Assembly: GCA_001776775.1 (NCBI GenBank)
Contig: MFDD01000002.1
Span: 309,344 to 373,343, forward strand
DNA: 64,000 nucleotides
Reading direction: 5' to 3'
Origin: Candidatus Daviesbacteria bacterium RIFCSPHIGHO2_02_FULL_43_12
Lineage (GTDB): Bacteria > Patescibacteriota > Microgenomatia > Daviesbacterales > UBA10151
Shown here: positions 1,893 through 40,571 of the stretch, piece after piece
Layout of the letters: the number at the start of each line of letters is the position of its first letter
Position numbering within the stretch: position 1 is the stretch's first letter
Notes under the pieces: generated by a model
Told to the model about the DNA's origin: nothing
Database searches by the model: none
Seen by the model: only the letters and a program-made list of their open reading frames with translations
Program-made: the position numbers and the translations under genes

Positions 1893-1896
1893 AATA

Positions 1897-3378: not shown

Positions 3379-3384
3379 AGGCAG

Positions 3385-4383: not shown

Positions 4384-5099
4384 TTAGCTTTTTTGGCCCA
4401 GTGTTGGCCAGCTTCGAGTAAAGTATCAAAGGTCCCGGCATCTCTCCAATATCCGGATAACTTACTCCAAGTTAAGCTGCCAGTTTCTATATAGCGATTA
4501 TTCACATCAGTAATCTCTAGCTCGCCCCGGTCTGATGGCTTGTTAGTTTTAATGTAGTCAAATACTTTTCTGTCATACATATAAAGTCCAGTCACTGCAA
4601 AGTTACTATCCGGATTTTTCGGTTTTTCAGTGATCTTACTTATCTTTGAAGGATCCTGCGGGTCAAAAGTTGGTACCCCAAAACGGGCGGGGTCTGGTAC
4701 CTCCTTTAAGAAGATCCGAGCTCCGTCAGTAAATTCGGCAACATCTTTGGAAATATCGGCATCAGTGGTGTTATCTCCCAGAATAACAGTAACATTATCC
4801 CCTTCGGCAAAAACCTCGGCCAGAGACAGAGCTTGAGCAATGCCCCCCTCCTTATCCTGAACAGCAAATTCCAAGTGACGGATTCCCAACTCCTTACCAG
4901 TGCGTAGCATATTCAAGAAATGCCCGACATGTGGACCGCCTACCACGATCATAATCTCGTCTATTCCGGCATTAACTAAGGTTTGGATGGGATAAAAGAT
5001 CATCGGCTTGTTATAAACCGGAAGCAAATGTTTATTGGTGACATGGGTCAGGGGATAAAGCCTGGTGCCCAGTCCCCCTGCTGTAATGACGCCTTTCAT
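4380..5099 (-). CDS. rfbA: glucose-1-phosphate thymidylyltransferase-like sugar nucleotidyltransferase (short form, 239 aa)
   Basis: MKGVITAGGLGTRLYPLT nucleotidyltransferase G-loop. It has a 4-nt overlap with rfbB, which suggests translational coupling. Confidence 0.75.
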   Translation of the reverse strand: MKGVITAGGLGTRLYPLTHVTNKHLLPVYNKPMIFYPIQTLVNAGIDEIMIVVGGPHVGHFLNMLRTGKELGIRHLEFAVQDKEGGIAQALSLAEVFAEGDNVTVILGDNTTDADISKDVAEFTDGARIFLKEVPDPARFGVPTFDPQDPSKISKITEKPKNPDSNFAVTGLYMYDRKVFDYIKTNKPSDRGELEITDVNNRYIETGSLTWSKLSGYWRDAGTFDTLLEAGQHWAKKAK

Positions 5100-26108: not shown

Positions 26109-26154
26109 AAAACCTCTTTAATTTAACATAAAATAATGTTATCGTCATCTTGCA

Positions 26155-27360
26155 ATGATGAAAATTATAATTACCCTGTTTTTAATTCTCTCAATAACTC
26201 TGCAAATCCATAATATCTACACCTACCCACCGACTAGGGGATTCGATTCTTTGGGACATATTCAAAACATTACCAAAATGCAAAGTGAAAAAAGACTTCT
26301 CCTACCAGAGGAAACTCCGCAGTCATATCATCCTCCATTATATTATTTAGTAGCGAGCAGTTTCCCTAATCTAAAAATAGTTCAGTGGTTTAACTTTTTG
26401 GTACTTTTAACTTTGGGAGCTTTAGTTTTTTACTTTTTTAAAAGAGTTATTGACTCTACTATTCCGGCTCTATCTTTTTTACTATTAATGACTAGTTTGC
26501 CAGTAGTTGTGTATATGGTTCCTCAAATTAGTAATGAATTTTTTTCTGCAGTATTAATCAGTTCTACCCTAATATTTTATTACTTTAAAAGAGAGCTGCT
26601 TGGTAAATTTAGTAATCAAATTATTTTAGGAATGTTAGTGGGATTATCTTTACTATCCAAATCTACGGCATTGGTTTTTTTTCTCACCATTCTTATTGAT
26701 CAACTAATTTTAAATAAACTTGATTTTAAGAAATATTTTTTTTCTACATATCTACTATTTTTTTCGAGTCTACTAATCTCTGGATGGTTTTATATAAGAA
26801 ATTTTTTATACTACGGTAACCCACTTGTGACTAATATTGATTTTCCACAGTGGCAATATTTTCAAGAGCCAGGATTCAGAGATTTATTATTTTATATTAA
26901 CTTAAAACCCTTTTTATATTTTGATTTATTTCATGCACATTGGTATTCATTTTGGGGCGGAACTTTTTATAGTTTTTTCTATGATGGGTCAAACGCCCTT
27001 ATTCCCGTCCAGCAATTTTCTAAGGCTGGAGTTTTGCTGGTAATACAATCACTTCCTTTCGTTTATTTATTCTTCAAGGGTTGTATTCATACTTTACGGT
27101 CACCATCTTCGAGGGGTAAATTTTTTTTACTTTATATAAGTTTACTTTTCATGGCCTATTTTTTTTATACCCTAAAACTACCGTTCTATTCCGCGGTAAA
27201 AGCAAGCTACCTGCTTTCCTTAGTTGTTCCTTTTACTTACTTTGTTAACAAAGGTTTAGAAAAATCTCTCGTACTAAAAGCGGCTTTCCCTTTTTATGTT
27301 TGTATCTATACACTTGTCGTTATAAAGAATTTTTGGATACAGACTTACTGGATGCGATGA
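26155..27360 (+). CDS. GT-C-like polytopic membrane protein (ArnT/PMT-like), 401 aa
   Basis: More than 10 TM helices, about 27% GC, and a periplasmic loop after TM1. No soluble domain. Confidence 0.45.
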   Translation: MMKIIITLFLILSITLQIHNIYTYPPTRGFDSLGHIQNITKMQSEKRLLLPEETPQSYHPPLYYLVASSFPNLKIVQWFNFLVLLTLGALVFYFFKRVIDSTIPALSFLLLMTSLPVVVYMVPQISNEFFSAVLISSTLIFYYFKRELLGKFSNQIILGMLVGLSLLSKSTALVFFLTILIDQLILNKLDFKKYFFSTYLLFFSSLLISGWFYIRNFLYYGNPLVTNIDFPQWQYFQEPGFRDLLFYINLKPFLYFDLFHAHWYSFWGGTFYSFFYDGSNALIPVQQFSKAGVLLVIQSLPFVYLFFKGCIHTLRSPSSRGKFFLLYISLLFMAYFFYTLKLPFYSAVKASYLLSLVVPFTYFVNKGLEKSLVLKAAFPFYVCIYTLVVIKNFWIQTYWMR

Positions 27361-28781
27361 GACCAAAACTTTTAAGCTCCTATCTTTTATTAACTCTTTT
27401 GGTACTCGGACTATTTACTGTTTTTTCTTTTAACCTTCAAGCTAGCTATTTACTATCCTCGGATTTTTCCAGGGATGTAGACCAGGCTTTAAAGATTACC
27501 CAGGGGCACTTAACAATTGTCGGGCCCTGGCTTAATTTTAAAGGTCTTTTAGCGGGGCCTTATTATTACTATTTTTTAAGTATTCCTCTTTTTCTCACCT
27601 CTGCCAATCCAAATAGCACCCTTTTTGTTAATGCTTTGATGTTTGCCCTTTCTTTGGGATTTTTTTTCTTACGAATGCAGAAAGAAACTACTGGTTTAAA
27701 AGGTCTTTTAGCAACTCTGAGCTTAGCATTCAGCTTTTCTTTTATACTGGCAGCCAGAACACCTGGAAATGGTTTCTCTTATCTACCTTTACTGCTACTA
27801 GTTTTGACAGATTTTTACACTACCAAAGAATATAGTTTCAAACAGGTAGGTTTACTCGGAATCTTTTCTGGTTTACTTGTTAATACTCATCCTATTTCAA
27901 GTTTTGTATTAGTTCCGATCTTTATTTATTTTCTCTTCAAGAATCGACTGCAGTTTTTAGTTATATGCTTGGGATTATCCCTGACTTACCTTCCGCTATT
28001 GCTCTTTGAACTTTTACATAATTTTCAAATTCTGAAAAGTTTTATAACTCCGGATTTTAATCAAACTAATAGTTTGGGGAACTTTTCGTCTCACCAGTCT
28101 ATTTTTTTAGTATTAAAATTAAATATCCAAACTATTTTTGTATTTTTAGATAGACAATTTATCCTACCTAGTATTTTAACAATCATTTCAATTATTACTT
28201 TCTCAGTAATAACATTTAAAAAATCTCAGTTATTTATAATCTTTCATCTTTTATGTAGCTTAGTATTATTCATTGTCCTGTTACCCAAGACTGCCGAGTT
28301 TCACTACTCACTGCCCTTTGGACTACTGATCCTTTTTTTATTTGCCTTTGTCATCGCTCGATCTAGTTTATATCTACTTTTAAGTTTAATTATTATTTTA
28401 GAAATATTTTTCTTTCCCTTTGATCTTTTCAAACCATCTGCTCGAAACTTCGTTACTATCGAGAAAAGAGTTAATTTTATTCTAGCTCAAAATATTATCG
28501 ATAAAGAGCCATCTCTTAATGTCATAAGATTTTCTGACTCTAACAGCTTTTTACCCATTGGACAGGAATACCGATTTTTTCTAAGGAGAGCTGGCTACAA
28601 GGTAGACTCCGAATATGAATATCCCAAGTCAAAGCAATTAGTTATTTTCGCCGAGTACCCTCAGTTTGATATCACTAAATTCCGTACCTGGGAAACTAGT
28701 CAATTTGGAAATGACTACTTAAGGAATTATAAGCAATACACGCTTGAAGAAACTTCAATCTATGTAGTCAAGAAATTTTAA
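27357..28781 (+). CDS. GT-C-like polytopic membrane protein, about 475 aa
   Basis: A polytopic N-terminal region plus a C-terminal soluble domain. The start is placed at the ATG at 27357 (MRPKLLSSYLL), which forms an ATGA overlap with the upstream stop. The ORF track began it earlier at 27300. Confidence 0.45.
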   Translation: MRPKLLSSYLLLTLLVLGLFTVFSFNLQASYLLSSDFSRDVDQALKITQGHLTIVGPWLNFKGLLAGPYYYYFLSIPLFLTSANPNSTLFVNALMFALSLGFFFLRMQKETTGLKGLLATLSLAFSFSFILAARTPGNGFSYLPLLLLVLTDFYTTKEYSFKQVGLLGIFSGLLVNTHPISSFVLVPIFIYFLFKNRLQFLVICLGLSLTYLPLLLFELLHNFQILKSFITPDFNQTNSLGNFSSHQSIFLVLKLNIQTIFVFLDRQFILPSILTIISIITFSVITFKKSQLFIIFHLLCSLVLFIVLLPKTAEFHYSLPFGLLILFLFAFVIARSSLYLLLSLIIILEIFFFPFDLFKPSARNFVTIEKRVNFILAQNIIDKEPSLNVIRFSDSNSFLPIGQEYRFFLRRAGYKVDSEYEYPKSKQLVIFAEYPQFDITKFRTWETSQFGNDYLRNYKQYTLEETSIYVVKKF

Positions 28782-28783
28782 TT

Positions 28784-31700
28784 TCATTTAACAATTCTTC
28801 TAGCGATGTTTCTTAGAATTCGTTTGTCCTGTGCGGATAGTGCTAAGACACTCTCAAAATGATTTGGGTGAGCTAGGTAGTTTCGAACTCTAGCTGCCGC
28901 TATAGATTCCTGCAAAGATCTTCTAGGATCTGCTAATTGTGCTGGTGACAGTTTGATTAGCTTAAAACCACTCCTTAGCCCATCTCCCCAAGAAACCCAG
29001 TTTAAAAAACTATATGCTCTTTGAATTTCATCAAACTCAAGACTATTCCAAAAACTGTCTGTTTGAATTGGTAAAGCTGGCAGATTTTCTGGAGTGATAG
29101 TCTTAGTTTCAAAACCGGCCCCAGTAATATTTTCCTCAGCTAAAGTAACTGCTTTTCTGGATCTATAATTACTTATCCGTCTATAGGCCAACCACCCTAA
29201 TCCTAATCCAACTACCCCCTCAGACAACTTTAATCCCAGACCAAGCCAGTCAAAAGGTTTTTTTATCTCAGCCTCGGGAGTCCTTGAATCTCTCGGAAGC
29301 ATTGGATTTTGGCTGCGGTCTTTGCTCAGAGCATCTAGAAATCGCCGCGTTTCGGCATCTATCTGATCTTGATCAACATTAGGGGTTGGGTCATTTTTAC
29401 CTGACTCCCCTGCCTCATCAACTACAAAGCCATGAGCGTTTAGGTTGTCCAAAGAGCCTCTTTCTCTTTCACCATTTACTCCATACAGATATCCCCGGGC
29501 TCTATTTAAGTACTGACCAGGTCTATCAACTAAAGAGCTGGATAAAACCGCTCCCAAACTACAGACATCACAATTACATCCCTCAAGCTTAAAGACCGCA
29601 TTAAGTTTTTCCTCCGGCGAATTTGCGGCTTCTATCTGTTTTTTGTGTTCACTGCTTATCTGATAGTGGTAATGTTTTTTAAAGTATCCCGCTATTTGCT
29701 CGTAGCTAATTTGTGAAGAGGTCCCGCTAGCCAAAAGATTCATCAACTTAGTAAGAGCTTCGGGCGAAAGTTTTGAAGTATCAATAGGCTCCACTTTAGC
29801 TACAGCCTTCACTTGAGGTGTCTCCGCTGGAAATAATCCTACAGTTACAGTAGCTCCCTTAGTTACATCCGCCTGACCCAACTCCACCTCAATAGTACCG
29901 TCGTTAAATTGATAAGCTCGATAGGGCAAAATATTTCCTGATAGATCCTGCACCCTAAGTAAGCCGACCTGGGTGTGGTTTAATATGGGAATACGCAGAG
30001 TTTTATCGCCTACCACTGTCCATAGTTCCACATGGGGAACTTCAGAGGTTTCAGTAGGGTAACTCACTAGTTTTTGCCCTTCTCGATTAGCGATCCACTT
30101 AGCTCCGACCATCTCATGACTGGTGCTTTGAGTATAGTACCCAGCCGCGCTCATTTGATGAGGGATTACTGTCCAGCGCCGATCATAATCGTCACCTGTC
30201 TCCGCGAGCATTTCACTTGGCAGCGAAACAGTATCCGGCATGATTTCGCCATACTTTATAGAGGATCCCTCTGGGGGTGTCATCTGTACAGCTCCTTGGG
30301 CCAATCCCCAAATCAAGGCAAAAGGTAGAGCGCGTAAAGCCCACCAACGCGCGTGTCTGGCAAAAGTTCTTCGTCCATTAACTAAAGATGCCAGATTTTG
30401 TCTTTGCTCCCTAACTTTAAGCCCGAGTACGGATAAAGACTCCTCTATCTCTTTTTGGGTTGGGGATTCTTGATTAACTAAACGAGGTTGTCTGGAAGCG
30501 AGCAGAGTATCCAAAGCATAAGCCAATCGACCTGCTTGCATTTGCCTTTTGTCTAATGGTCGGATTTCAGGCTGATCATGAGTTAGATAGTAATTATGGG
30601 GTTGTCTAAAAGTTCCTGGGGCAATTTCATCAGGTAACTCAGGTGTTCTTTTTAAGATCTCTTCCGCGGATAAGCCTTGGACACCAAACAAACGACCAAG
30701 ATCAATTCGTTGGGGGGGTTCGGTAAAATTAAGAGCAAACAGTTTATGATCATTACCTCGCTGCGGTTGAATTATTGATCTATTAGTTCTTCGAGCAGTA
30801 GGATATGCTGAGTCTGCCCCTATATAAACAGGTTGAGAGGTCACTAGGTAGCTTTCTAAAGCACGCATAATTAGGCGGCGTAGATGTCGCTTGACTTCTG
30901 TTTCATATCTATCTACCTCAGCGCGGGGCCGGGGAGAGTCTGCTTCTTCAACTAATGCGTCTAACTTTGGATCTCCTAATTTACGATGCATCCCAAAGTA
31001 CGCTGTTTTAAAAAATGGGTCACTGTATAGCTCCTGGGGACGAAAACTTAAGCGTCTAAACTCTGCTGGCGTTAGCAGGGCCACCTGTTCCTGAGTATCT
31101 TTAAGAGTAGCCTCTTTGTGACTTAATAGTTGGGCTAGCGGAAGATGGGGGAAATCCTGAATATATTTACTTAAACCAGGTGGAGTCCTTGTGGGCAATA
31201 TTACACCCATATAGTCCACCCAATTTAGGTCAAAGTCTGCAGTAATAGGGGCCAGGGAAGAATCATAAAGCTCCGCCAGCAAATTTTCCCGTTGCATCAC
31301 AGAGCTCTTTTTGAGACGACCCGAAGACCGTAGCTCGGGCATCCTGACGAGCACAACTTGTCCTGCTGTTTCCAGAACTCTAGCCTCTGACCCTTTTTCA
31401 GGATCAGCTGGTTTTAGCTCAATCGGCTGACCCTTATAAACGACAATCTCTCCTTTAAGACCGAACTGCTGGTTTTCTATTTTCCCTCTTCGAAAGCTTC
31501 TATCAATAGGCTGTTTGGGGGGTAATTTACCCTGGTTCAAACGGTGTTCTTGATAGGCAAAGGCAGCGGTAGCAGCTACACTTCCCACTACTAAGGCAGC
31601 CCAAGGTCGGGGTCCTATTTGAGAAGCTGCAATAAATGAATTTAGCACTCCCCAGCCAATTGTGGCTCTGAGGGGAAACTCTTTCAAGGCCACCACAAAA

Positions 31701-31810
31701 TCATCAATTCTATCCTTTGTATGATAGGTGATCCATTTAGGATAATCCGATCTGCCTGGACCTCGATGGAATCGGTCCGTATAACCACGTTTAGGTAAAG
31801 TTTCTGTCAT
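28784..31810 (-). CDS. giant membrane protein, paralog A (1008 aa), unknown function
   Basis: N-terminal TM pair, a mid-protein TM (ARWWALRALPFALIWGLAQGAV), a C-terminal TM (FDWLGLGLKLSEGVVGLGLGWLAY) and large soluble regions. It shares full-length similarity with the 960-aa protein, including GCNCDVCSLGAVL and FLNWVSWGDG blocks. Confidence 0.6.
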   Translation of the reverse strand: MTETLPKRGYTDRFHRGPGRSDYPKWITYHTKDRIDDFVVALKEFPLRATIGWGVLNSFIAASQIGPRPWAALVVGSVAATAAFAYQEHRLNQGKLPPKQPIDRSFRRGKIENQQFGLKGEIVVYKGQPIELKPADPEKGSEARVLETAGQVVLVRMPELRSSGRLKKSSVMQRENLLAELYDSSLAPITADFDLNWVDYMGVILPTRTPPGLSKYIQDFPHLPLAQLLSHKEATLKDTQEQVALLTPAEFRRLSFRPQELYSDPFFKTAYFGMHRKLGDPKLDALVEEADSPRPRAEVDRYETEVKRHLRRLIMRALESYLVTSQPVYIGADSAYPTARRTNRSIIQPQRGNDHKLFALNFTEPPQRIDLGRLFGVQGLSAEEILKRTPELPDEIAPGTFRQPHNYYLTHDQPEIRPLDKRQMQAGRLAYALDTLLASRQPRLVNQESPTQKEIEESLSVLGLKVREQRQNLASLVNGRRTFARHARWWALRALPFALIWGLAQGAVQMTPPEGSSIKYGEIMPDTVSLPSEMLAETGDDYDRRWTVIPHQMSAAGYYTQSTSHEMVGAKWIANREGQKLVSYPTETSEVPHVELWTVVGDKTLRIPILNHTQVGLLRVQDLSGNILPYRAYQFNDGTIEVELGQADVTKGATVTVGLFPAETPQVKAVAKVEPIDTSKLSPEALTKLMNLLASGTSSQISYEQIAGYFKKHYHYQISSEHKKQIEAANSPEEKLNAVFKLEGCNCDVCSLGAVLSSSLVDRPGQYLNRARGYLYGVNGERERGSLDNLNAHGFVVDEAGESGKNDPTPNVDQDQIDAETRRFLDALSKDRSQNPMLPRDSRTPEAEIKKPFDWLGLGLKLSEGVVGLGLGWLAYRRISNYRSRKAVTLAEENITGAGFETKTITPENLPALPIQTDSFWNSLEFDEIQRAYSFLNWVSWGDGLRSGFKLIKLSPAQLADPRRSLQESIAAARVRNYLAHPNHFESVLALSAQDKRILRNIARRIVK

Positions 31811-31866
31811 AACTAGCCTCTAATTATATCTTAAAAAGAGGTTTTAGTCAAACTATAGGACTAATT

Positions 31867-33603
31867 TTAGGAAGGAAAGGATCGGGAGAACCTGATCCTG
31901 CTGGCTAAGTAGCTGGGAAAACATACCCAAAGCTCCAAGATTATGATCCCCAAAGCTGCCAGAGAGATATAATTACTCCAAGATCTAATGGGAGTGTTTT
32001 GCAATTTCGCTTCAATGATATGACTTCCTGGGCTAATCTGTACTCCTAAGAAGTGATACTTACTGTCCTCTCGGATCACGGTATCTTGGCCGTCGACTTG
32101 TACCCTCCAACCAGGAAATTGGTGGGTATTGATCGTAAAAGTTATAGGCGTGAGGGTGTCTATAGCAAAGCGGAAGTTGGTGGCTGTAGAGCTCAATGTC
32201 CGGACTATCGCCTGATCGGGCGTAACCGTCCACTTTGGAGAGTCCCATTCGGGAAGCTCATTGACCCCTTTTGGCATATACCCCGGTTCAATAAAAGCCT
32301 CCTCGCGGGTTAATTTGTGAAGAGGCCAGCTGGACAGAGGAGCATTTAAAGCCTTTTCCTCAAAAAAAGTCTGCGGCTGCAAAAAAGGTAGAGAAAAAAA
32401 TAGGGTGGCCATAAAAATCATGGCGGTAAAGATGATCTGATGCTTTTTATTTAATAAAGAGATAATTGCTGCTCCTAGCAAAGCTTGAGCTATTGGTAAA
32501 ACCATCAGAAATCGCCAGGGAAACTGGATAAACCGCAGGATCTCGAGGTGCTCCCAGAACAAAAGCGATCCCTTAAAAGTAAAGAAGTAACCATAACAGG
32601 CTACTCCAAGCCAAAAAATCAGCTTATTTAAAATAGGCAACGACAGTTTTTTACAGATAATCCAAATAGCTACAGCTAAGCTGCTAACGAGTATCCAGGT
32701 TGACAAAAGACCTAAACTGATAGATCTGGTAAAAATCTCTCCCCACCAGGATCCGTTATACCCCCAAATATATGAAACGGGGAGTAAGGGGTCGGAAAAG
32801 TTTTTATGAAAATCAAAAGCCTGCTTGGTTAAATCATTAATATTAATAAATTTTAGCTCAAAGAGGGCGGGCAGAAGATAAAAGGCGGCTAGGGTTACAC
32901 CGATAATAAACGATAGCGTAAGTTTACCTAGGTTAGGCAGAGAGGATACTTTTGCCGTATAGAGAGTAAGCAAGCTAAATCCTAAAATAACTGGCAGGCA
33001 GATTATAGTAGCCGGCAGATGAGAGATGATCATTAGCCCAAAAACCAAAGAGATCATCGGCCCAAAGACAGCTTTTGACTTTTGCAGCAGTTGCTCAGTC
33101 AACCAGAGTAAGACGGGCAGCAGCGAGATTACAGTAAATTCCGGAAAGGACCCTCGGATAAAAATATCCAGGATTAAATAGGGGGCGAATCCATAGAGTA
33201 AGGCTGCCGTTGAGGCAGGTAAAACCCCGTATTTTTTGGACAGTAAAAATATAAAAAACGTGCTTACTATCCATAACAGATAGACGGTTATTTTTAGAGC
33301 AAACACTGAGGGTAAAAAAACAAAAAAAAGAGCCGTTAAATAGTAAAACCCAACTTGATAAAAGTTAAAAAGAGGCATGCTGTAACCGTTTTGCACCCAG
33401 TCAACCCACCTAACAGGAAACTGGCCTTCCTGCAATGCCTGAAAAAATATTTTTGCATAAGTTATATGGGCAAAAGCGTCATGGCTGGAAGGAAGTCCAC
33501 TTTGAAACCAAAACACCCCTCCAGATATGATCAGGACAGACGTTAAGATAACTAGTAGGTTACTTAAAAAACTTTCCTGCAAATATTTAAGTAAACTTTT
33601 CAT
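31867..33603 (-). CDS. polytopic GT-C/YfhO-like membrane protein (578 aa)
   Basis: About 13 TM helices in the N-terminal 400 aa with a periplasmic HDAFAHITYAKIFFQALQEGQFPVRW loop, plus a C-terminal beta-rich soluble domain. Its start overlaps the stop of the 960-aa gene. Confidence 0.5.
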   Translation of the reverse strand: MKSLLKYLQESFLSNLLVILTSVLIISGGVFWFQSGLPSSHDAFAHITYAKIFFQALQEGQFPVRWVDWVQNGYSMPLFNFYQVGFYYLTALFFVFLPSVFALKITVYLLWIVSTFFIFLLSKKYGVLPASTAALLYGFAPYLILDIFIRGSFPEFTVISLLPVLLWLTEQLLQKSKAVFGPMISLVFGLMIISHLPATIICLPVILGFSLLTLYTAKVSSLPNLGKLTLSFIIGVTLAAFYLLPALFELKFININDLTKQAFDFHKNFSDPLLPVSYIWGYNGSWWGEIFTRSISLGLLSTWILVSSLAVAIWIICKKLSLPILNKLIFWLGVACYGYFFTFKGSLLFWEHLEILRFIQFPWRFLMVLPIAQALLGAAIISLLNKKHQIIFTAMIFMATLFFSLPFLQPQTFFEEKALNAPLSSWPLHKLTREEAFIEPGYMPKGVNELPEWDSPKWTVTPDQAIVRTLSSTATNFRFAIDTLTPITFTINTHQFPGWRVQVDGQDTVIREDSKYHFLGVQISPGSHIIEAKLQNTPIRSWSNYISLAALGIIILELWVCFPSYLASRIRFSRSFPS

Positions 33604-33605
33604 TT

Positions 33606-36488
33606 TTAGGTATACAGCTCAACCAGGCCACTGACTTTATGTAGCCCACCACGAGCATAGTTAGCTAAGGCCCGCACTTTTCTTCTTTGACACTCCTCGA
33701 ACCCCTGGTCAGATTCTTTTAGTGATGGCTTCTTAAGGTACTGGCCTAACCTTTGCCGATAGCTACCTTGCATAAGATCATTTAGCAAAGCCTGCTTATC
33801 TCTGGCAGAGTAAACAGCTGGTGAGAATGGCCTATCTTCTCCCCAGGAGATCCAGTCAAGAAAATGTTTCATCGCTTCTAGTTCCTGGCGACTAAACCGA
33901 TCGCGAACCTTTGCATCCATAAAGGGACCAAGTGTCTTTTGGGTAAAATTGCTTTGCAGCTCGTAAATTAGAGCAGCTGCACAGAGTGACCAAATAGTCA
34001 AACTTGTTCCCATAAGTACCTTACCAGTTAGATCTATGGTCTTTTCAAAAAGACTAGCGATATATACCTTTGAGGCAAGTTCATCCCTTTGTCTGGCCCA
34101 TTCGCTTGCATCAGGAACTTGTTTGCTTCTTTCGATATATTGTCTGGTAAAGGCATCCCTCGCTAAGTCTTTAGGAGTAGCGTCATAGATAGCCCTACCT
34201 CTCATTGTATACAAGTGTAGGTCACTAATTCGCAGAGGATAGCCTCCTCTTGGTGCAGGATTATCTAATCCTACACCGTAGCCTATTGCCAGGTTTAAGG
34301 AAGGATAGTTGGGAGATAAGAAATGCGCCACAAGAACAGCTTCGATATTACAAAGCTCACAATTACAACCCGGAAGATGGTTAACGATGTTCAAAAAAGC
34401 CGCTGGGTTAGTTTGGTGCTTAACCTCACTGGTGTTTTTGGGATTATTATTATAGAGGTGTCCTTCGGCAATCACATCTACTACACTCTGATAATAATCG
34501 CCTGTACGAATATATCTCTCGGCAACTGCAGTAAAGAGACTCTCCGCCTCTTGACTAAGTCCATCCGGATTTAACCGATTCAACGACCCATCAGCATGAA
34601 CTTGGCCCTGATCAGCCGGTTTGAGACTGATAGTGATATCCGCGTATGAATCTTTTAAATTCGGAGTTAGCGGAATATACAAACCAACTGTCCCATCTTT
34701 ATACATAGTATTCGTAACTTGTATAGTGTTATTTTTGCTATCCGATACTCTGACCGCTTCAACAACGGTATTTGGCTTAATAGGAATTTTTATTTGAGGC
34801 AGATCAACCTTACCCACCCGCAGTCTGGTCTGCAGACTGAAGTGAGGACTACTGGGGTCTGGCTCAGTCGGATAAGCAACCAGTTTATCGATAGTATCTT
34901 CATCGACCCAACCCCGACCTTTGTCTAAAAAGTGGGCTGTTGATGTTACATAATAACCTCGCGGATCTGGCTCTCCTGTTGTAGTGATCCACCAATCTAT
35001 CTGATTTGCAGATAAAGAACTTTGCCCACCTTCCAATAATTTAACGGCCGTACTTTGTGAATCACGATAGTTTGGTGGACTAAACCATTCAAAACCTTTG
35101 AAGCCAAAATGCATTGCTCCGGCTAAACCCATCATCAATACGGCCTGTCTGGCTACTTTGGGTAGAAGGCTAATTTTTTTACCTGTTGTACCCTGAAGAT
35201 CTATCTCCCCTTGCAGAGGATTACTTTTAGCTTCTTTAGAATATTGGTGTAAAAGGGCCTGGACTTGAGCTTGGGCAGGTGGCTTTCTCTCGAGCAGTTT
35301 TGCTGCATCGCTCTGGTTGATGAATTCGTGAGCTGCAAAGGCTACCTGAGCTCTATTAAAAGCTTCCGGACTCTCCACAACTCTTTCTGGCGGTATATCT
35401 CCTAAACCCACAGCTCTGGATAATATTCGCGGGGCAGATATCAATCCCCCTGTGGTCGGTACTGATTGCACCATCAGCTGTCCGTCATAGCGGCGATAGA
35501 CCCGGGTTGTTACAGCGGTCTTGGTGCGTAAAAAAGGTATATCTAGTCTTCGAACCAAAGAACTACTACTTCCTTCTTCGACATAGCGAACAATTAGTCC
35601 TTGGAGATGTTTTCTTAACCTTTCTTGTGCATTTTGAGCCTCTTCTCCAGGGTTCGCAACTTCCAATTGTTGCATTAGCGCATTTACCCTACTATCACCT
35701 AGCATTGCGCAGGCTTGCTGCAAGATCGCTTGTTTAACAATGGTAAATTCCTCTAATCCAGTTTTATGCACTAAGGTTACTCGGCGCTGAGGATCAATTA
35801 AACTAAAATCTTTACCCAATACCAGAGCCTGTCTGGTTAAAGAGTTCTGCGTTTTCAGGGCTGCCTCAACTAGAGGCGGGGCTTGGGGAGGGACCTCTAT
35901 CCCTAACCAGTCAATTCTTCGGGAGCTTAATCTTGGCTTGACTTGAGCAATAATACCATCATAAACACTTAACCATAATTTTGAATCAGCCTCTGTACCT
36001 TCTTTCTTTAAATTGAGACGGTTCGGCCATAACCCATCGGCTAAATTTTTGAAGAATCGCCTAGCCCCTTTGGGCTCTAAGCCCTGCAAAACCGGAAGTT
36101 TAAGGAAATAAATATTATCCCCTCTTCGCAACCTTTTGTCTCCCAAGACAACATCATTACCGGCGTATGCTAAGTGATAGCCTTTAAATCCGAGTTTAGC
36201 GTCTCGATCGGTATCTTTGCGAGCTGAGTGCAAAGCCCTTACACCCGCGCTTGCCAACCTAATACCGGTATAACCAGGCACCAGTAGCGTTGTCGCCAAT
36301 GCCGCAGTCAAACCTGAATCTAGGGAAACTCCTGCTCTATCCAAAAAATAGTAGGCCAAAAAAGGCAGCGAGCTCAGGGTCACGGCTGCCAGACCACGGC
36401 TAAATATAGCATCTCGGTAATCAAACTGATCGTGTGTTAGATAACGAGGTTTAGGCAGAGATGACCTCTCCCGATTCTTTCCAGACAT
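33606..36488 (-). CDS. giant membrane protein, paralog B (960 aa), unknown function
   Basis: Same architecture as paralog A. Alignable blocks include SKLWLSVYDGIIAQV against ENLLAELYDSSLAPI, GYYVTSTAHF against GYYTQSTSHE, GCNCELCNIEAVL against GCNCDVCSLGAVL, and FLDWISWGED against FLNWVSWGDG. Confidence 0.6.
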   Translation of the reverse strand: MSGKNRERSSLPKPRYLTHDQFDYRDAIFSRGLAAVTLSSLPFLAYYFLDRAGVSLDSGLTAALATTLLVPGYTGIRLASAGVRALHSARKDTDRDAKLGFKGYHLAYAGNDVVLGDKRLRRGDNIYFLKLPVLQGLEPKGARRFFKNLADGLWPNRLNLKKEGTEADSKLWLSVYDGIIAQVKPRLSSRRIDWLGIEVPPQAPPLVEAALKTQNSLTRQALVLGKDFSLIDPQRRVTLVHKTGLEEFTIVKQAILQQACAMLGDSRVNALMQQLEVANPGEEAQNAQERLRKHLQGLIVRYVEEGSSSSLVRRLDIPFLRTKTAVTTRVYRRYDGQLMVQSVPTTGGLISAPRILSRAVGLGDIPPERVVESPEAFNRAQVAFAAHEFINQSDAAKLLERKPPAQAQVQALLHQYSKEAKSNPLQGEIDLQGTTGKKISLLPKVARQAVLMMGLAGAMHFGFKGFEWFSPPNYRDSQSTAVKLLEGGQSSLSANQIDWWITTTGEPDPRGYYVTSTAHFLDKGRGWVDEDTIDKLVAYPTEPDPSSPHFSLQTRLRVGKVDLPQIKIPIKPNTVVEAVRVSDSKNNTIQVTNTMYKDGTVGLYIPLTPNLKDSYADITISLKPADQGQVHADGSLNRLNPDGLSQEAESLFTAVAERYIRTGDYYQSVVDVIAEGHLYNNNPKNTSEVKHQTNPAAFLNIVNHLPGCNCELCNIEAVLVAHFLSPNYPSLNLAIGYGVGLDNPAPRGGYPLRISDLHLYTMRGRAIYDATPKDLARDAFTRQYIERSKQVPDASEWARQRDELASKVYIASLFEKTIDLTGKVLMGTSLTIWSLCAAALIYELQSNFTQKTLGPFMDAKVRDRFSRQELEAMKHFLDWISWGEDRPFSPAVYSARDKQALLNDLMQGSYRQRLGQYLKKPSLKESDQGFEECQRRKVRALANYARGGLHKVSGLVELYT

Positions 36489-36537
36489 ATTATGGGGTAT
36501 TTTAGCTTGTTGGGCTTAAATTGCAAAGAAGGTGAGT

Positions 36538-39288
36538 CTATGATCGATGCTGAGAGGCGCCAATTAAACCACATTTTTTCCACTTTAATCCTGATCCACA
36601 AGGACAAGGGTCGTTACGACCGATTTTTTGATGAGTTAATTGTCCCTTTTCGCCGTAGTTTTGAGTACTAATCGATCCTCCGGCTCGTTCAATAGTTACT
36701 TTTGTTCCTACATAAGGGAGGTCTTTAACGACCGGTTTCTCTTTAATCTCCAGTTGATCGATCTCTCGGGTTAGGTGCCCCACTTCTTCTAAAAGATTCT
36801 CTTCTTCCAACGCTTCTTGATGAATCTCCAGCGCTTTATCCAGGTTAGCCATGGGTTGATTAGAGGGCAGCTGATTATTAACTGAAATTTTGTAAATACG
36901 GTGCACAACATCAGAATCGATAGTGTCCATTAGTTGGGAGAACAGGTCAAAGGCTTCCTTTTTATATTCCACTAGCGGATCTCTTTGCGCATAACCCCGC
37001 AAACCGATCCCCACCCTTAGATCATCAATCGTATCCAGATGCTCGAGCCACAAGGTATCGATGGTATTAAGGTAAACAAAACTCTCCATCTGGCGACAGA
37101 CGTCCGCACCTAACTCTTTTTCTCTCATCTCGTAGACGTCTGCTGCGATTTTGGTTAGCTGCTCAGTGATCGCTTCTGATGAATCTATCTGTCTAAGCTG
37201 TCCCACTAAACCCTCTCTGCTGGTGGTATCAAAGGGGATAATGGTCACAAATTCCTCGGCAATTTTTTCGATATCAGCTACCTCAGTTGAGTGGATCGTC
37301 ACGATACTTGCTATCTCTTTTTGAATCTTTTCCTGGATTTTTTCTTTGGTAATCCCCGAGTTTGTGGCCATTGCCTGTAAAATCTGGTTCCTGACTCCAT
37401 AGACAATTTGGCGTTGTTGATTCATCACATCGTCATACTCCACAGTATGTTTACGGGCATCAAAGTTGTGGCCCTCAACTTTTCGCTGGGCCCCCTCAAT
37501 TGCTTTCGAAACAAGCCCATTTTCAATCGGCATATCATCAGGGATCTTCAAAAACTCCATTACCCGGGCAACCTGTTCACCTCCAAAAATACGCATTAGA
37601 TCATCTTCAAGGGAAACATAAAATTTACTTGCTCCCGAGTCTCCTTGACGTCCTGAACGACCCCGGAGCTGGTTATCAATTCTGCGGGATTCATGGCGCT
37701 CAGTCCCCACCACATATAGACCTCCCAGTTCGTTAACACCGACAGAAAGCTTAATATCCACCCCTCTTCCCGCCATATTGGTCGCTACAGTCACCGCTCC
37801 TTTCTCACCGGCTTTAGAGATAATCTCCGCCTCTTTTTCGTGATTTTTAGCATTCAACAAAGCATGGGAGATACCTTTCTTCTTGAGCAGCTTAGATAAA
37901 AATTCGTTTTTTTCAATCGAAGTGGTGCCAACCAGTACCGGTTGTCCGGATTCATGCAGCTTAGCTACATCCTCGACCACGGCGGTATACTTAGCCAGCT
38001 CAGTCTTGTAGATACTGTCCGGAAGATCTTTACGGACCATTGGGCGGTTAGTAGGAACCACTATGACGTCTAATTTGTAGATTTTATGAAATTCTTCGGC
38101 TTCTGTGGCGGCCGTACCAGTCATGCCGGAAAGCTTTTCGTACATCCGGAAATAGTTTTGAAAAGAGATAGTGGCCATCGTTTGAGATTCTTGTTGAATA
38201 GTCACTCCTTCTTTTGCCTCAATAGCCTGGTGCAGACCTTCTGAATAACGCCTTCCCGGCATTAATCTGCCCGTAAACTCATCGACGATAATTACTTCTC
38301 CGTCTTTGACGACATAATCTTTGTCCTTTTGAAAAAGAGTTTTGGCTTTAAGTGCTTCTTCGATATGATGCAGAGTCGAAAAATCTTTCTCATACAAATT
38401 ATCTATCCCCAGCAGCTTTTCTATCTTCAAAGTGCCTGCATCGGTCAAGTGAACAGTGCGCATCTTTTCATCCAAAATATAATCTTGAGCAGACATTTTT
38501 TCGATCAATTTGGCAAACTGAGCATATTTTTCGGTTGGCTCCTGAGCAGGAGCGGAGATAATGAGCGGAGTCCTGGCTTCATCAATCAAAATCGAGTCCA
38601 CCTCATCAACAATGGCAAAATAGTGGCCCCTCTGGACCTGCGATTCCAAAGAAAGAGCCATGTTATCGCGCAGGTAATCAAAACCAAATTCGTTATTGGT
38701 GCCATAAGTAATATCCGCACCATAAGCTTCCTTTCGGGTAATCGGACGCAGATGCTTTAATCTCTCGTCAGTGGTGTCTTTGTCGATATAATCCGGGTCA
38801 TAGAGAAAGGCTTGTTCGTGTATGATCGTGGCGCAGCTTATTCCTAAGGCATAGTAGACCGGACCCACCCAACCACATTCCCGCCGGGCTAAATAATCAT
38901 TGACAGTTATAATATGTATGCCACGATCGGTAAGGGCATTTAAGTAGGCCGCGGGGGAAGCTGAAAAGGTCTTTCCTTCTCCGGTTTTTTGTTCAGATAT
39001 TTTACCTTCATGTAAAGCCGCTGCAGCGATCAGCTGAACATCAAACAGTCTGGCATCATTTACTCTTTTGGAAGCTTCCCTGACAACGGCAAAAGCCTCC
39101 GCTAAAAGTTGATCCAAGGTTGCACCTTGCAAATGCTTCTTTTTTAGCTCTTCAGTCCGTTTCTTGAGCTGGGAGTCAGAAAGCTTCGCTATCTCTTCCT
39201 CTAGCAGATTTACCTCTTTGACCTTTTGAGCAAAGCGCCGGAGTGCTTGCTGGTTAGAATCGATTAGTTTAGTAAATAAATTAAGCAT
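36538..39288 (-). CDS. secA: preprotein translocase ATPase SecA
   Basis: 916 aa with the DEAD-like motor, preprotein cross-linking domain and C-terminal zinc-binding tail CPCGSGLKWKKCG. Confidence 0.95.
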   Translation of the reverse strand: MLNLFTKLIDSNQQALRRFAQKVKEVNLLEEEIAKLSDSQLKKRTEELKKKHLQGATLDQLLAEAFAVVREASKRVNDARLFDVQLIAAAALHEGKISEQKTGEGKTFSASPAAYLNALTDRGIHIITVNDYLARRECGWVGPVYYALGISCATIIHEQAFLYDPDYIDKDTTDERLKHLRPITRKEAYGADITYGTNNEFGFDYLRDNMALSLESQVQRGHYFAIVDEVDSILIDEARTPLIISAPAQEPTEKYAQFAKLIEKMSAQDYILDEKMRTVHLTDAGTLKIEKLLGIDNLYEKDFSTLHHIEEALKAKTLFQKDKDYVVKDGEVIIVDEFTGRLMPGRRYSEGLHQAIEAKEGVTIQQESQTMATISFQNYFRMYEKLSGMTGTAATEAEEFHKIYKLDVIVVPTNRPMVRKDLPDSIYKTELAKYTAVVEDVAKLHESGQPVLVGTTSIEKNEFLSKLLKKKGISHALLNAKNHEKEAEIISKAGEKGAVTVATNMAGRGVDIKLSVGVNELGGLYVVGTERHESRRIDNQLRGRSGRQGDSGASKFYVSLEDDLMRIFGGEQVARVMEFLKIPDDMPIENGLVSKAIEGAQRKVEGHNFDARKHTVEYDDVMNQQRQIVYGVRNQILQAMATNSGITKEKIQEKIQKEIASIVTIHSTEVADIEKIAEEFVTIIPFDTTSREGLVGQLRQIDSSEAITEQLTKIAADVYEMREKELGADVCRQMESFVYLNTIDTLWLEHLDTIDDLRVGIGLRGYAQRDPLVEYKKEAFDLFSQLMDTIDSDVVHRIYKISVNNQLPSNQPMANLDKALEIHQEALEEENLLEEVGHLTREIDQLEIKEKPVVKDLPYVGTKVTIERAGGSISTQNYGEKGQLTHQKIGRNDPCPCGSGLKWKKCGLIGASQHRS

Positions 39289-39374
39289 GAATTTGAAAGT
39301 AGGGGAATTATACTAAAAAAGCAGAGATTGACAAAGCTTTTTACGAACCTTTAAACTTATGGTACATACTGCCC

Positions 39375-40571
39375 ATGGATAATAATCAAAATTCACCAAA
39401 CGACCCTCTCTCGCCGCCCATTCCATCTCCGATTCAACCTGTCCCGGTTCAGTCCGCCTCGGATCAGACACCTTCCCTACCTTGGACGACACCAACAGCC
39501 CTAACTGACAACCCTACATCAACTGGTGTGGGGCCAATACCCGATCTGAGCGCTACAGGTGCTTTTTCAGCTACGACTGCCCCTGCTCCAACTATCTCCG
39601 ATATGACTACATCTTCCTTTGTTAATGCTCCCACTCAGCCCGGTTTAGATAGTGCCTTATCTTCATGGCAACCTGCTCCTCCTACTTCGCCGCGAGGCGA
39701 GCCTGACTTCAGTCAAGGCGGTCCTACCTCGTATCCTTCTGCCCCTGCTCCAGTACAAGCACCTAGCCCAATGGACACACCACCATCTTTTGATAGCTTA
39801 ATGGCCAATCCTCCGGGTTCAAGTCTTGACACCCCGGCTGCAATTCCAACTTTTACGACAGACAACACTGCGCCTCAAATGCCCACCCAACCCGTTTCAA
39901 CCGACATAAACCAAGGCGCACAAGGTGCAAGCTCACCCATGGACACCACTCCAGCTCCTATACCAACCTGGCCTCCGGTCGATCAGGTTACGCCCCCTTC
40001 TCAACCGGCCACCCTGCCTCCTTTTGAGCAATCCCAACTGACCTCTCCCCCCACATTACCCCCAATTGAACCAGGGCCAATTAATCCAACCGGCGGATCT
40101 ACCTCTCTCCCTGAGCCTGCTCCAACAGACCTATCTCAACTTACTAGCACTTCCGGTAGCCTGCCCCCTGTTCCTACTGAGTCCTATGCTCCAGCTCCGG
40201 AACATACCAACCCTATTACTACTGCCTCAAATACTACCGCAAGTACTCCAGAAACTGTCACTGCTCCCAAACCTTTTCCTCTTCAACTCTTGATTGGTGG
40301 GGTAGTAACGCTGCTGTTGGTCACAGCCGCCTCTATTTATATTTTTTTCTTCGCTGGTAAAAATGCTCCGGAACCATCGTCGCTACCTGCTGAACAAACT
40401 CAGCTACCTCTCAGCAATCCACCAAAACAGGTCATCCCATCTATCGTTCCTCAGGAAGCAACAAGCGGAGCGGGATTTGGCAGTCTGAATAACCAGCTGG
40501 CCACAGCTTCAGCCAAACCACTTTCAGCACTAGATGCACTAAGACAGCGTCAAGCCTCACCAACTCCTTAG
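39375..40571 (+). CDS. proline/threonine/serine-rich low-complexity protein with C-terminal TM anchor
   Basis: About 300 aa of PxxP-rich disordered sequence, then LLIGGVVTLLLVTAASIYIFFF, then a short tail. Confidence 0.45.
   Translation: MDNNQNSPNDPLSPPIPSPIQPVPVQSASDQTPSLPWTTPTALTDNPTSTGVGPIPDLSATGAFSATTAPAPTISDMTTSSFVNAPTQPGLDSALSSWQPAPPTSPRGEPDFSQGGPTSYPSAPAPVQAPSPMDTPPSFDSLMANPPGSSLDTPAAIPTFTTDNTAPQMPTQPVSTDINQGAQGASSPMDTTPAPIPTWPPVDQVTPPSQPATLPPFEQSQLTSPPTLPPIEPGPINPTGGSTSLPEPAPTDLSQLTSTSGSLPPVPTESYAPAPEHTNPITTASNTTASTPETVTAPKPFPLQLLIGGVVTLLLVTAASIYIFFFAGKNAPEPSSLPAEQTQLPLSNPPKQVIPSIVPQEATSGAGFGSLNNQLATASAKPLSALDALRQRQASPTP

What the first reader, a model, noticed from the sequence alone, without database searches (positions are those of the whole stretch)
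28784..39288. secA-led operon encoding two ~1000-aa paralogous membrane proteins around a GT-C-like permease
Four co-directional genes on the minus strand appear to form a single transcription unit. They are secA (36538-39288), a 960-aa protein (33606-36488), a 578-aa polytopic protein (31867-33603) and a 1008-aa protein (28784-31810). Gaps are 49 nt and 56 nt, and the 960/578 pair has a start/stop overlap. The 960- and 1008-aa proteins are clear full-length paralogs, sharing several TM segments, a GYY.xST.H block and a C-terminal FL(D/N)W(I/V)SWG block. Neither shows a domain I can name. Duplicated giant envelope proteins co-transcribed with the Sec motor and a glycosyltransferase-like membrane protein look like a dedicated surface-structure system. 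Candidates are an adhesin, an S-layer or pilus-like apparatus, or an episymbiont attachment apparatus. I read this as a candidate uncharacterised system.
Basis: partly seen in the sequence, partly recalled or inferred. Interest (0 to 1): 0.8.

Follow-up and report, generated by a model that had tools for sequence, protein, structure and literature searches.

The report
Two divergent TgpA-like membrane transglutaminase-fold enzymes
The two unannotated ~1000-residue proteins downstream of secA in this Candidatus Daviesbacteria genome are very divergent relatives of the bacterial membrane enzyme TgpA, with an outward-facing Cys-His-Asp transglutaminase/protease-like domain, and their position beside secA looks like a local accident, not a dedicated secretion system.

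Summary
All four minus-strand genes exist as described. They are secA (916 aa), a 960-aa protein, a 578-aa polytopic protein and a 1008-aa protein. The two large proteins are real paralogs (BLASTP E 2e-28). One detail is wrong: the 960/578 junction is a 2-nt spacer, not an overlap.

The inferred architecture is a TM hairpin, a ~380-aa cytoplasmic domain with no structural match, TM3, an external beta-sandwich plus transglutaminase-like core, TM4 and a cytoplasmic helical tail. No Pfam or PDB sequence search detects any of this.

SecA scores as the housekeeping SecA. In 8 of 8 relatives with usable context the homolog stands alone, with no secA, adjacent GT-C or tandem paralog. None of 80 other secA loci has a member within 10 kb.

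Verdict: a new, sequence-undetectable variant of a known enzyme kind. The "dedicated secA-linked surface system" reading is not supported.

The parts
36538..39288 (-). secA, the housekeeping preprotein translocase ATPase (916 aa) with a C-terminal SEC-C zinc motif
   Evidence: All SecA domains are found by Pfam. NCBIfam PRK12904 scores 1094.8 bits (cut-off 814) and TIGR00963 scores 1017 bits (cut-off 800). All SecA2 models score below their cut-offs.
39307..39334 (-). Promoter-like site upstream of secA (TTGTCA-16-TATAAT, 11/12)
   Evidence: Consensus scan only; not evidence of function.
33606..36488 (-). 960-aa TgpA-like membrane protein (paralog A, P0001). By alignment to the 1008-aa model: TM hairpin ~aa 25-80, cytoplasmic domain ~81-432, TM3 ~433-460, ectodomain ~499-790, TM4 ~818-846, helical tail to 960.
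   Evidence: Its best homolog is P0010 from Candidatus Levybacteria (E 2e-54, aligned over aa 25-944).
34119..34994 (-). Predicted extracytoplasmic beta-sandwich plus transglutaminase-like core of the 960-aa protein (aa 499-790). Triad codons: C710 at 34359-34361, H758 at 34215-34217, D769 at 34182-34184.
   Evidence: The triad columns are invariant in the 54-sequence alignment.
36499..36527 (-). Weak promoter-like site (9/12) in the 49-nt gap between secA and the 960-aa gene
   Evidence: consensus match only.
31867..33603 (-). 578-aa polytopic membrane protein, GT-C-like (PTPS_related, PF10131). It starts 2 nt after the stop of the 960-aa gene. It has about 10 hydrophobic helices plus a C-terminal soluble segment and a final TM.
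   Evidence: Pfam E 2.8e-5, 23.2 bits, below the gathering score of 26.4. Hydropathy. PF10131 belongs to the GT-C clan (PMC7801869). Junction sequence. No homolog sits next to any family member elsewhere.
31823..31851 (-). Strong promoter-like site (TTGACT-17-TATAAT, 11/12) in the 56-nt gap. Its -10 element ends 12 nt before the ATG of the 1008-aa gene.
   Evidence: This suggests the 1008-aa gene may have its own promoter; untested.
28784..31810 (-). 1008-aa TgpA-like membrane protein (paralog B, P0002)
   Evidence: Its best homolog is P0003 (E 1.5e-54).
31532..31699 (-). N-terminal TM hairpin of the 1008-aa protein (aa 38-93)
   Evidence: AF2 helices 34-63 and 70-93. Hydropathy peaks recur across the family.
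30371..31531 (-). ~380-aa alpha/beta domain between TM2 and TM3 (aa 94-480), predicted cytoplasmic and conserved in the family (motifs LG..A...VY.G, GDN, LT.EEFE.L, FN.PE). No sequence or structural relative was found.
29321..30175 (-). Extracytoplasmic beta-sandwich (aa 546-661) plus helical and transglutaminase-like core (aa 683-830). Triad codons: C747 at 29570-29572, H793 at 29432-29434, D807 at 29390-29392.
28787..29254 (-). TM4 (aa ~853-880) and C-terminal helical domain (aa 881-1008) carrying the F(L)xW(V/I)SWG motif, predicted cytoplasmic
   Evidence: No DUF4129 HMM hit.
26155..28781 (+). Two convergent PMT_2-like (GT-C) ORFs in a low-GC islet (31-33% GC against 43% for the window). 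They abut the 3' end of the 1008-aa gene. This is context only; membership of any unit is unproven.
   Evidence: Pfam PF13231 E 1.4e-5 and 7.4e-4, both below the gathering score. GC values.

Best explanation
The 960-aa and 1008-aa genes encode two anciently diverged paralogs of one protein family. The named members of that family are all Microgenomates (CPR).

Each protein is a four-helix membrane protein laid out as follows:
- an N-terminal TM hairpin;
- a conserved cytoplasmic alpha/beta domain of about 380 aa with no known relative;
- TM3;
- an extracytoplasmic module of a beta-sandwich plus a transglutaminase/papain-like core with a Cys-His-Asp triad, structurally homologous to the periplasmic domain of Pseudomonas aeruginosa TgpA;
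- TM4;
- a cytoplasmic helical tail.

Shown:
- the fold match to TgpA;
- the invariant triad;
- the recurring TM pattern;
- family membership;
- the absence of conserved synteny.

Inferred:
- The ectodomain faces the cell wall. This rests on charge distribution around the TM helices and on analogy with TgpA.
- It acts as a thiol enzyme on amide or isopeptide bonds of envelope proteins, wall peptides or glycans, by transamidation, proteolysis or deamidation, as in other bacterial transglutaminase-like enzymes.
- The cytoplasmic domains regulate or anchor it.

The 578-aa GT-C-like gene is tightly packed behind the 960-aa gene, so the two are probably co-expressed locally. The position downstream of housekeeping secA is a lineage-specific adjacency with no demonstrated functional meaning.
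For: - Paralogy: BLASTP E 2e-28. Each paralog is closer to proteins of other organisms (E about 1e-54) than to the other paralog.
- Family size: 81 clusters at E of 1e-3 or better among 1.84e9 representatives, nearly all 900-1000 aa. Named members are Daviesbacteria, Levybacteria and one entry named only 'bacterium'.
- Conservation: G557, C747, G773, H793, D807 and T809 are invariant in 54 sequences.
- Structure model: AF2 with the 54-sequence alignment gives mean pLDDT 78 and above 90 in the ectodomain. Cys747 sits at the N-terminus of helix 747-758 and His793 in strand 792-798.
- Alignment register: hhalign against a Pfam-recognised Transglut_core protein places Cys, GY, His and Asp in register.
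- Topology: the four-TM pattern recurs across the family. Charge is denser on the predicted cytoplasmic flanks of TM3 and TM4 (sequence).
- TgpA background: a membrane protein with a periplasmic transglutaminase domain, in vitro transglutaminase activity and an essential role (PMC3507681).
- SecA is the housekeeping gene.
- Synteny: absent in 8 of 8 relatives and in 80 secA loci.
Against: - No sequence method reaches significance against Transglut_core, DUF3488, DUF4129 or any PDB chain. The hhalign E-value is only about 0.6.
- The assignment therefore rests on a predicted structure plus the triad pattern.
- I could not inspect the model coordinates, so the triad geometry is not verified.
- Topology is inferred from weakly hydrophobic helices (Kyte-Doolittle means 1.0-1.9) and not from a dedicated predictor.
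- The substrate and reaction type are unknown, and TgpA's own physiological role is also unknown.
- Close relatives (other Daviesbacteria species) were not available. Synteny was tested only in relatives that share about 22-25% identity.
Confidence: 0.78

Rival explanations
1. secA, the two large proteins and the GT-C-like protein form one dedicated apparatus that exports and assembles a surface structure (adhesin, S-layer, pilus-like or episymbiont attachment organelle).
For: - Four co-directional, tightly spaced genes, with no terminator-like site in the gaps.
- All three downstream products are membrane proteins.
- Several GT-C-like genes cluster nearby.
Against: - SecA is the housekeeping equivalog and does not reach any SecA2 cut-off.
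- The large proteins are enzymes with a TgpA-like fold. They are not repeat-rich or fibre-like surface proteins.
- No homolog sits near secA in 80 genomes, and none of 8 relatives keeps the arrangement.
- Promoter-like sites inside the cluster allow independent transcription.
Confidence: 0.06
2. A local three-gene envelope-modification module. The two TgpA-like paralogs act as a heteromer together with the GT-C-like 578-aa protein, and perhaps with the two convergent PMT_2-like enzymes. They would process or cross-link a glycosylated envelope component, analogous to the transglutaminase-like WbmE acting on O-antigen. This extends the best explanation and does not exclude it.
For: - The 2-nt spacing between the 960-aa and 578-aa genes suggests co-translation or co-expression.
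- Both paralogs keep an intact triad.
- They are ancient paralogs, not redundant recent copies.
- Glycosyltransferase genes lie within about 8 kb of the homolog in 4 of the 8 relatives (L014, L097, L098, L099).
- WbmE sets a precedent for a transglutaminase-like enzyme acting on a glycan (cited in PMC3507681).
Against: - No homolog of the 578-aa protein is found near any other family member.
- Relatives carry a single copy in their locus.
- CPR genomes are rich in glycosyltransferase genes, so proximity is weak evidence.
- The PMT_2-like pair has a foreign GC content of 31-33%.
Confidence: 0.2
3. The proteins are non-catalytic scaffolds or anchors that merely retain a transglutaminase-like fold, like catalytically dead transglutaminase-like domains in other systems.
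For: - Catalytically inactive transglutaminase-like domains are known (PMC10318531).
- No activity data exist for this family.
Against: - Cys, His and Asp are invariant in 54 of 54 sequences. The rest of each protein averages under 25% identity to the window's 1008-aa protein. That is the signature of selection on catalysis.
Confidence: 0.05

Closest known systems
TgpA (PA2873) of Pseudomonas aeruginosa; PDB 6G49/6G4H; Pfam architecture DUF3488 + Transglut_core
   Same: - The Cys-His-Asp triad is present.
- The catalytic module is bracketed by TM helices, so it faces outward.
- A cytoplasmic tail follows the last TM (PMC3507681).
   Different: - About 10% sequence identity, and no HMM-level similarity.
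- The N-terminal anchor is a 2-TM hairpin plus a ~380-aa soluble domain plus one TM. TgpA has the 5-TM DUF3488 instead.
- Size is 900-1000 aa against 668 aa for TgpA.
- It is not linked to PA2875/PA2874-type partner genes, with which tgpA is co-transcribed. No such genes occur in the window or in the relatives' loci.
- It is found in monoderm-like CPR bacteria.
Transglutaminase-like superfamily in general (Pfam PF01841): PeiW/PeiP pseudomurein endoisopeptidases, WbmE O-antigen deamidase, and the 3ISR putative cysteine protease
   Same: - Papain-like core with Cys at a helix N-terminus, and His and Asp on following strands.
- Envelope-directed chemistry on amide or isopeptide bonds (PMC3507681, PMC10318531).
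   Different: - The family is below the detection limit of the PF01841 HMM.
- It has its own C.C..CN motif around the nucleophile.
- It has its own flanking domains.
CPR-C4 (PDB 7OB6), a CPR protease with remote vasohibin/transglutaminase-like homology
   Same: It sets a precedent: CPR bacteria carry transglutaminase-like cysteine enzymes that only structure reveals (PMC9108980).
   Different: - CPR-C4 is a homodimer of chains of roughly 215 residues, and the word 'membrane' does not occur in the paper's text.
- Its triad is Cys-His-Leu(carbonyl).
Accessory Sec (SecA2/SecY2) glycoprotein export loci
   Same: A secA-family gene lies next to glycosyltransferase-like genes and large envelope proteins.
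   Different: - SecA here passes the housekeeping models and fails every SecA2 cut-off.
- No SecY-family hit appears in any of the 48 window ORFs scanned against Pfam.
- No Asp genes and no serine-rich repeat substrate were seen, though I did not look for them specifically.

Membership tests
Transglutaminase-like / papain-like cysteine enzyme superfamily | Ordered Cys...His...Asp triad, with Cys at the N-terminus of a helix and His and Asp on following beta-strands | tested here: met
   C747, H793 and D807 are invariant in 54 of 54 sequences. In the model, C747 starts helix 747-758 and H793 lies in strand 792-798.
Transglutaminase-like / papain-like cysteine enzyme superfamily | Fold similarity to a solved transglutaminase-like domain | tested here: met
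   [not shown]
Transglutaminase-like / papain-like cysteine enzyme superfamily | Significant match to the Pfam Transglut_core (PF01841) HMM or to a PDB transglutaminase-like sequence | tested here: not met
   No hit for the two window proteins, for isolated core fragments, or for 52 family members scanned singly. Profile searches against PDB sequences returned nothing. hhalign E is about 0.6, although the triad is in register.
Transglutaminase-like / papain-like cysteine enzyme superfamily | Thiol-dependent transamidase, protease or amidase activity | not testable with these tools
   This needs biochemistry on the ectodomain (aa 546-830 of the 1008-aa protein, aa 499-790 of the 960-aa protein).
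TgpA family (DUF3488-Transglut_core membrane proteins) | Extracytoplasmic beta-sandwich plus transglutaminase core bracketed by TM helices | tested here: met
   [not shown]
TgpA family (DUF3488-Transglut_core membrane proteins) | N-terminal polytopic DUF3488 domain (5 TM helices in the first 180 aa; PMC3507681) | tested here: not met
   There is no PF11992 hit. The N-terminal part is instead a 2-TM hairpin, a ~380-aa soluble domain and one TM.
TgpA family (DUF3488-Transglut_core membrane proteins) | C-terminal DUF4129-type tail (association recalled from my own knowledge of Pfam architectures) | tested here: inconclusive
   A helical cytoplasmic tail with a conserved aromatic motif is present. 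There is no PF13559 HMM hit, and no solved structure of that tail exists to compare with.
TgpA family (DUF3488-Transglut_core membrane proteins) | Co-transcription with PA2875/PA2874-type partner genes (PMC3507681; their MoxR-like and DUF58 identity is my own knowledge) | tested here: not met
   No such genes occur in the 64-kb window or beside the homolog in 8 relatives.
Housekeeping SecA | Score above the curated cut-off of the SecA equivalog models, with the full domain set including the SEC-C motif | tested here: met
   PRK12904 scores 1094.8 (cut-off 814) and TIGR00963 scores 1017.4 (cut-off 800). Pfam finds all SecA domains.
Accessory SecA2 system | SecA2-specific model above its cut-off | tested here: not met
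   All four SecA2 models score below their cut-offs, for example TIGR03714 at 726.9 against 930.
GT-C glycosyltransferases (578-aa protein) | Match to a GT-C clan HMM above the gathering score, plus polytopic topology with an acidic motif in the first external loop | tested here: inconclusive
   PF10131 E 2.8e-5 and 23.2 bits, below the gathering score of 26.4, covering aa 79-410. About 10 hydrophobic helices. An 'SSHDAFAH' stretch follows TM1, but I did not check it against a family alignment.

The most novel reading that the evidence does not exclude
The family may be a CPR-specific transmembrane device. In this reading the conserved ~380-aa cytoplasmic domain, which has no sequence or structural relative, senses or is driven by an intracellular signal. 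It would control an outward-facing TgpA-like cross-linking or processing enzyme.

In this Daviesbacteria lineage, two ancient paralogs plus a GT-C enzyme would form a heteromeric machine. That machine would build or remodel a glycosylated surface layer used for cell-cell attachment.
Probability: 0.1. Interest if true: 0.7.

Novelty: new variant of a known kind. Interest (0 to 1): 0.4.

Why it matters
CPR/Patescibacteria genomes are full of large 'hypothetical' membrane proteins, and little is known about how these tiny, often host-attached cells build their envelope. This work removes two such proteins, and about 80 clusters of relatives, from the 'no domain' category. It assigns them a testable chemistry: an outward-facing Cys-His-Asp enzyme of the TgpA type.

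TgpA is essential in P. aeruginosa, yet its substrate is unknown. A very distant branch with a different membrane anchor and a new cytoplasmic domain gives comparative leverage on what the conserved ectodomain does.

The result also shows that the eye-catching linkage to secA is not evidence for a new secretion or attachment system. That saves follow-up effort.

Tried and rejected
- Word-indexed homology searches with the 960-aa protein, the two-paralog alignment and the 54-sequence alignment returned only self hits.
- The first AF2 run, on the 2-sequence alignment, was useless (pLDDT 31).
- Sequence searches found no informative match. That covers Pfam, NCBIfam and PHROGs on the whole proteins. 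It also covers Pfam on excised core and tail fragments and on 52 members singly.
- PDB sequence searches with profiles A1, A2 and A5 found nothing.
- hhalign against the one canonical Transglut_core protein I had (from L015) was not significant, E about 0.6. jackhmmer found no further canonical transglutaminase sequences in the fetched loci to build a better profile.
- I therefore spent the single genome-contig scan on secA. It returned 80 diverse bacteria and no Daviesbacteria. It was useful only as a negative control for secA linkage.
- The afdb50 fold library was unavailable. The BFVD viral library gave nothing.
- P0003 and P0004, the closest homologs, sit on contigs too short for synteny analysis.
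- Readings considered and rejected:
  - an accessory SecA2 locus;
  - a recent tandem duplication;
  - a third paralog in the window;
  - a phage or mobile origin for the three genes. Their GC content is native at 42-45%, unlike the neighbouring PMT_2-like pair.
Full report
**1. The observation**

The window carries four consecutive minus-strand ORFs at exactly the stated coordinates:
- 36538-39288, 916 aa
- 33606-36488, 960 aa
- 31867-33603, 578 aa
- 28784-31810, 1008 aa

Public gene calls for the same organism give identical lengths. The organism is Candidatus Daviesbacteria, in the Microgenomates group of the Patescibacteria.

The intergenic gaps are 49 nt and 56 nt, as stated. The 960/578 junction is TAA-AA-ATG, a 2-nt spacer and not an overlap.

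The two large proteins are genuine paralogs: BLASTP E 2e-28, 22% identity over 645 residues. The first ORF is SecA, with all its Pfam domains.

The consensus scan finds no terminator-like site in either gap. It does find sigma-70-like matches (sequence):
- 11/12 upstream of secA
- 9/12 upstream of the 960-aa gene
- 11/12 (TTGACT-17-TATAAT) ending 12 nt before the ATG of the 1008-aa gene

A single transcript is therefore possible but not shown, and internal promoters are plausible.

**2. What the large proteins are**

Pfam, NCBIfam and PHROGs give nothing for either protein. The word-indexed protein searches returned only the query proteins themselves.

An exhaustive HMMER scan of 1.84 billion cluster representatives, using the two-paralog profile, found 81 clusters at E of 1e-3 or better (63 at 1e-10 or better). 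Nearly all are 900-1000 aa long. The few with names come from Candidatus Levybacteria or an unnamed 'bacterium'.

In a 54-sequence alignment, identity to the window's 1008-aa protein averages about 20%. Six columns are nevertheless invariant: G557, C747, G773, H793, D807 and T809 in 1008-aa numbering. They sit in the consensus C.C..CNT..VLL.S...N.A.GY...FL...HAF.ID..G.I.DATP. This is the spacing and order of a transglutaminase/papain-like Cys-His-Asp triad.

With that alignment, AlphaFold2 gave a usable model. Mean pLDDT is 78 overall and above 90 across residues 546-830. The two-sequence run had failed with pLDDT 31.

Structure searches with the model gave these results:
- Foldseek against the PDB puts the periplasmic domain of P. 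aeruginosa TgpA first (6g49, E 2e-4, probability 1.00). A transglutaminase-like putative cysteine protease follows (3isr).

Sequence-level tests stay negative:
- PDB searches with profiles A1, A2 and A5 found nothing.
- 52 family members scanned singly against Pfam gave no relevant hit.
- hhalign against a canonical Transglut_core protein from locus L015 gives E of about 0.6. It does put Cys, GY, His and Asp in register.

**3. Architecture and topology**

The model and the hydropathy profiles agree on four helices whose positions recur across the family: about aa 38-63 and 70-93, about 481-509, and about 853-880.

Arg/Lys-rich stretches precede TM3 (GRRTFARHARWWALR) and follow TM4 (YRRISNYRSRK). 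The segments on the ectodomain side are acidic (family medians).

TgpA's homologous domain is known to be periplasmic (PMC3507681). Together these place the beta-sandwich plus catalytic core (aa 546-830) outside the cell. The ~380-aa domain (aa 94-480) and the C-terminal helical domain (aa 881-1008) would then be cytoplasmic.

**4. Is it a system with secA?**

SecA passes the curated cut-offs of the housekeeping equivalog models (1094.8 against 814, and 1017.4 against 800). It fails every SecA2 model.

I retrieved genomic context for eight family members on contigs of 25-101 kb: L011, L013, L014, L015, L096, L097, L098 and L099. In each the homolog is a single gene among unrelated housekeeping genes, for example:
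- between dnaX and ybaB in L011
- next to Lon in L097
- next to F420-related genes in L098
- next to ATP synthase genes in L099

None has secA, an adjacent GT-C gene or a second family member. hmmsearch and phmmer over all ORFs of the 99 fetched loci confirm this.

An hmmsearch with the family profile finds no member within 10 kb of secA in 80 other genomes, among them some 20 CPR genomes by record title. No third paralog occurs in the window.

Each window paralog is closer to proteins from other organisms (E about 1e-54) than to its neighbour (2e-28). The pair is therefore old and not a recent tandem duplication.

No close relatives exist in the searched collections, where the nearest homologs are about 25% identical. 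Synteny in sister species therefore could not be tested.

**5. The middle gene and its surroundings**

The 578-aa protein has about 10 hydrophobic helices. It has a sub-threshold match to PF10131 PTPS_related (E 2.8e-5, 23.2 bits against a gathering score of 26.4). That family belongs to the GT-C clan (PMC7801869).

Two further PMT_2-like ORFs converge on the 3' end of the 1008-aa gene. Their GC content is 31-33%, against 42-45% for the three genes of interest and 43% for the window.

The rest of the window is ordinary CPR chromosome: rml genes, ruvABC, a peptide chain release factor, AdoHcy hydrolase, Lon and aminoacyl-tRNA synthetases. It contains no gene of the kind co-transcribed with tgpA in Pseudomonas.

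**6. Most likely mechanism**

Shown:
- a TgpA-like fold
- an invariant triad
- a conserved four-TM layout
- a family whose named members are all Microgenomates
- no conserved neighbourhood

Inferred:
- An outward-facing thiol enzyme attacks amide or isopeptide bonds in an envelope component.
- By analogy with characterised bacterial transglutaminase-like proteins, the reaction could be protein cross-linking (TgpA in vitro), endoisopeptidase action (PeiW/PeiP) or glycan deamidation (WbmE) (PMC3507681).
- The cytoplasmic domains provide regulation or anchoring.

The close packing with a GT-C-like gene makes local co-expression likely and hints at a glycosylated substrate. This linkage is not seen elsewhere. 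I put 0.78 on the class and architecture assignment, about 0.2 on a genuine three-gene local module, and about 0.06 on a secA-centred apparatus.

**7. Comparison with known families, and novelty**

The proteins work like TgpA in fold, triad and placement of the catalytic module.

They fail several TgpA family criteria:
- no DUF3488 anchor
- no detectable DUF4129 tail
- no partner genes
- no HMM-level similarity

They add a new cytoplasmic domain. A CPR precedent for structure-only detection of transglutaminase-like enzymes exists in CPR-C4, which has a different triad and no mention of a membrane in its paper (PMC9108980).

I found no paper that links transglutaminase-like proteins of this kind to Patescibacteria.

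I therefore rate this as a new variant of a known kind. It is of moderate interest as an annotation advance and as a handle on TgpA function. It is not a new secretion or attachment system.

Noticed in passing
window 61041-63884 (-): A 947-aa ribonucleotide reductase large chain (PF02867 barrel plus TSCPD) is interrupted by an intein. The intein carries a LAGLIDADG homing endonuclease at about aa 58-431 (Intein_splicing, LAGLIDADG_3 and Hom_end hits).
   Followed up: no
window 56612-60361 (-) and 44906-47272 (-): Two more large ORFs (1249 aa and 788 aa) have no Pfam hit at E of 1e-3 or better. They are not members of the TgpA-like family.
   Followed up: partly
window 24675-28781: A low-GC islet (31-36% against 43% for the window) holds an amine-oxidase-like gene and two PMT_2-like (GT-C) ORFs. 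The two ORFs converge on the 1008-aa gene, with only 2 nt between the opposing stop codons. This may be horizontally acquired.
   Followed up: partly
window 39375-40571 (+), divergent from secA: A 398-aa ORF with no Pfam hit, one C-terminal TM and unusually high GC (52%). Assemblies carrying the identical 1008-aa protein call this stretch differently: one 398-aa gene (L003), one 256-aa gene (L002), or three genes of 93, 175 and 133 aa (L001). This suggests frameshifts or strain-level variation.
   Followed up: no
window 29561-29578 (aa 745-750 of the 1008-aa protein); same motif at aa 708-713 of the 960-aa protein: The catalytic Cys747 sits in a C.C..C motif. The flanking cysteines C745 and C750 are each conserved in 78% of 54 family members. 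This could be a disulfide, a redox switch or a metal site next to the nucleophile. Canonical Transglut_core sequences such as the one in L015 lack it.
   Followed up: no
L015 19580-21490 (-): The contig that carries family member P0027 also encodes, about 7 kb away, a canonical Pfam-recognised Transglut_core protein of 636 aa with a signal-like N-terminus and a C-terminal TM. The divergent family therefore coexists with ordinary transglutaminase-like proteins and does not replace them.
   Followed up: partly
window 1897-3378 (-): Another PMT_2 GT-C protein (493 aa, above the gathering score) is embedded in a dTDP-sugar (RmlD, dehydratase and nucleotidyltransferase) cluster at 383-5099. Counting it, this 64-kb window holds four GT-C-like genes.
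   Followed up: no
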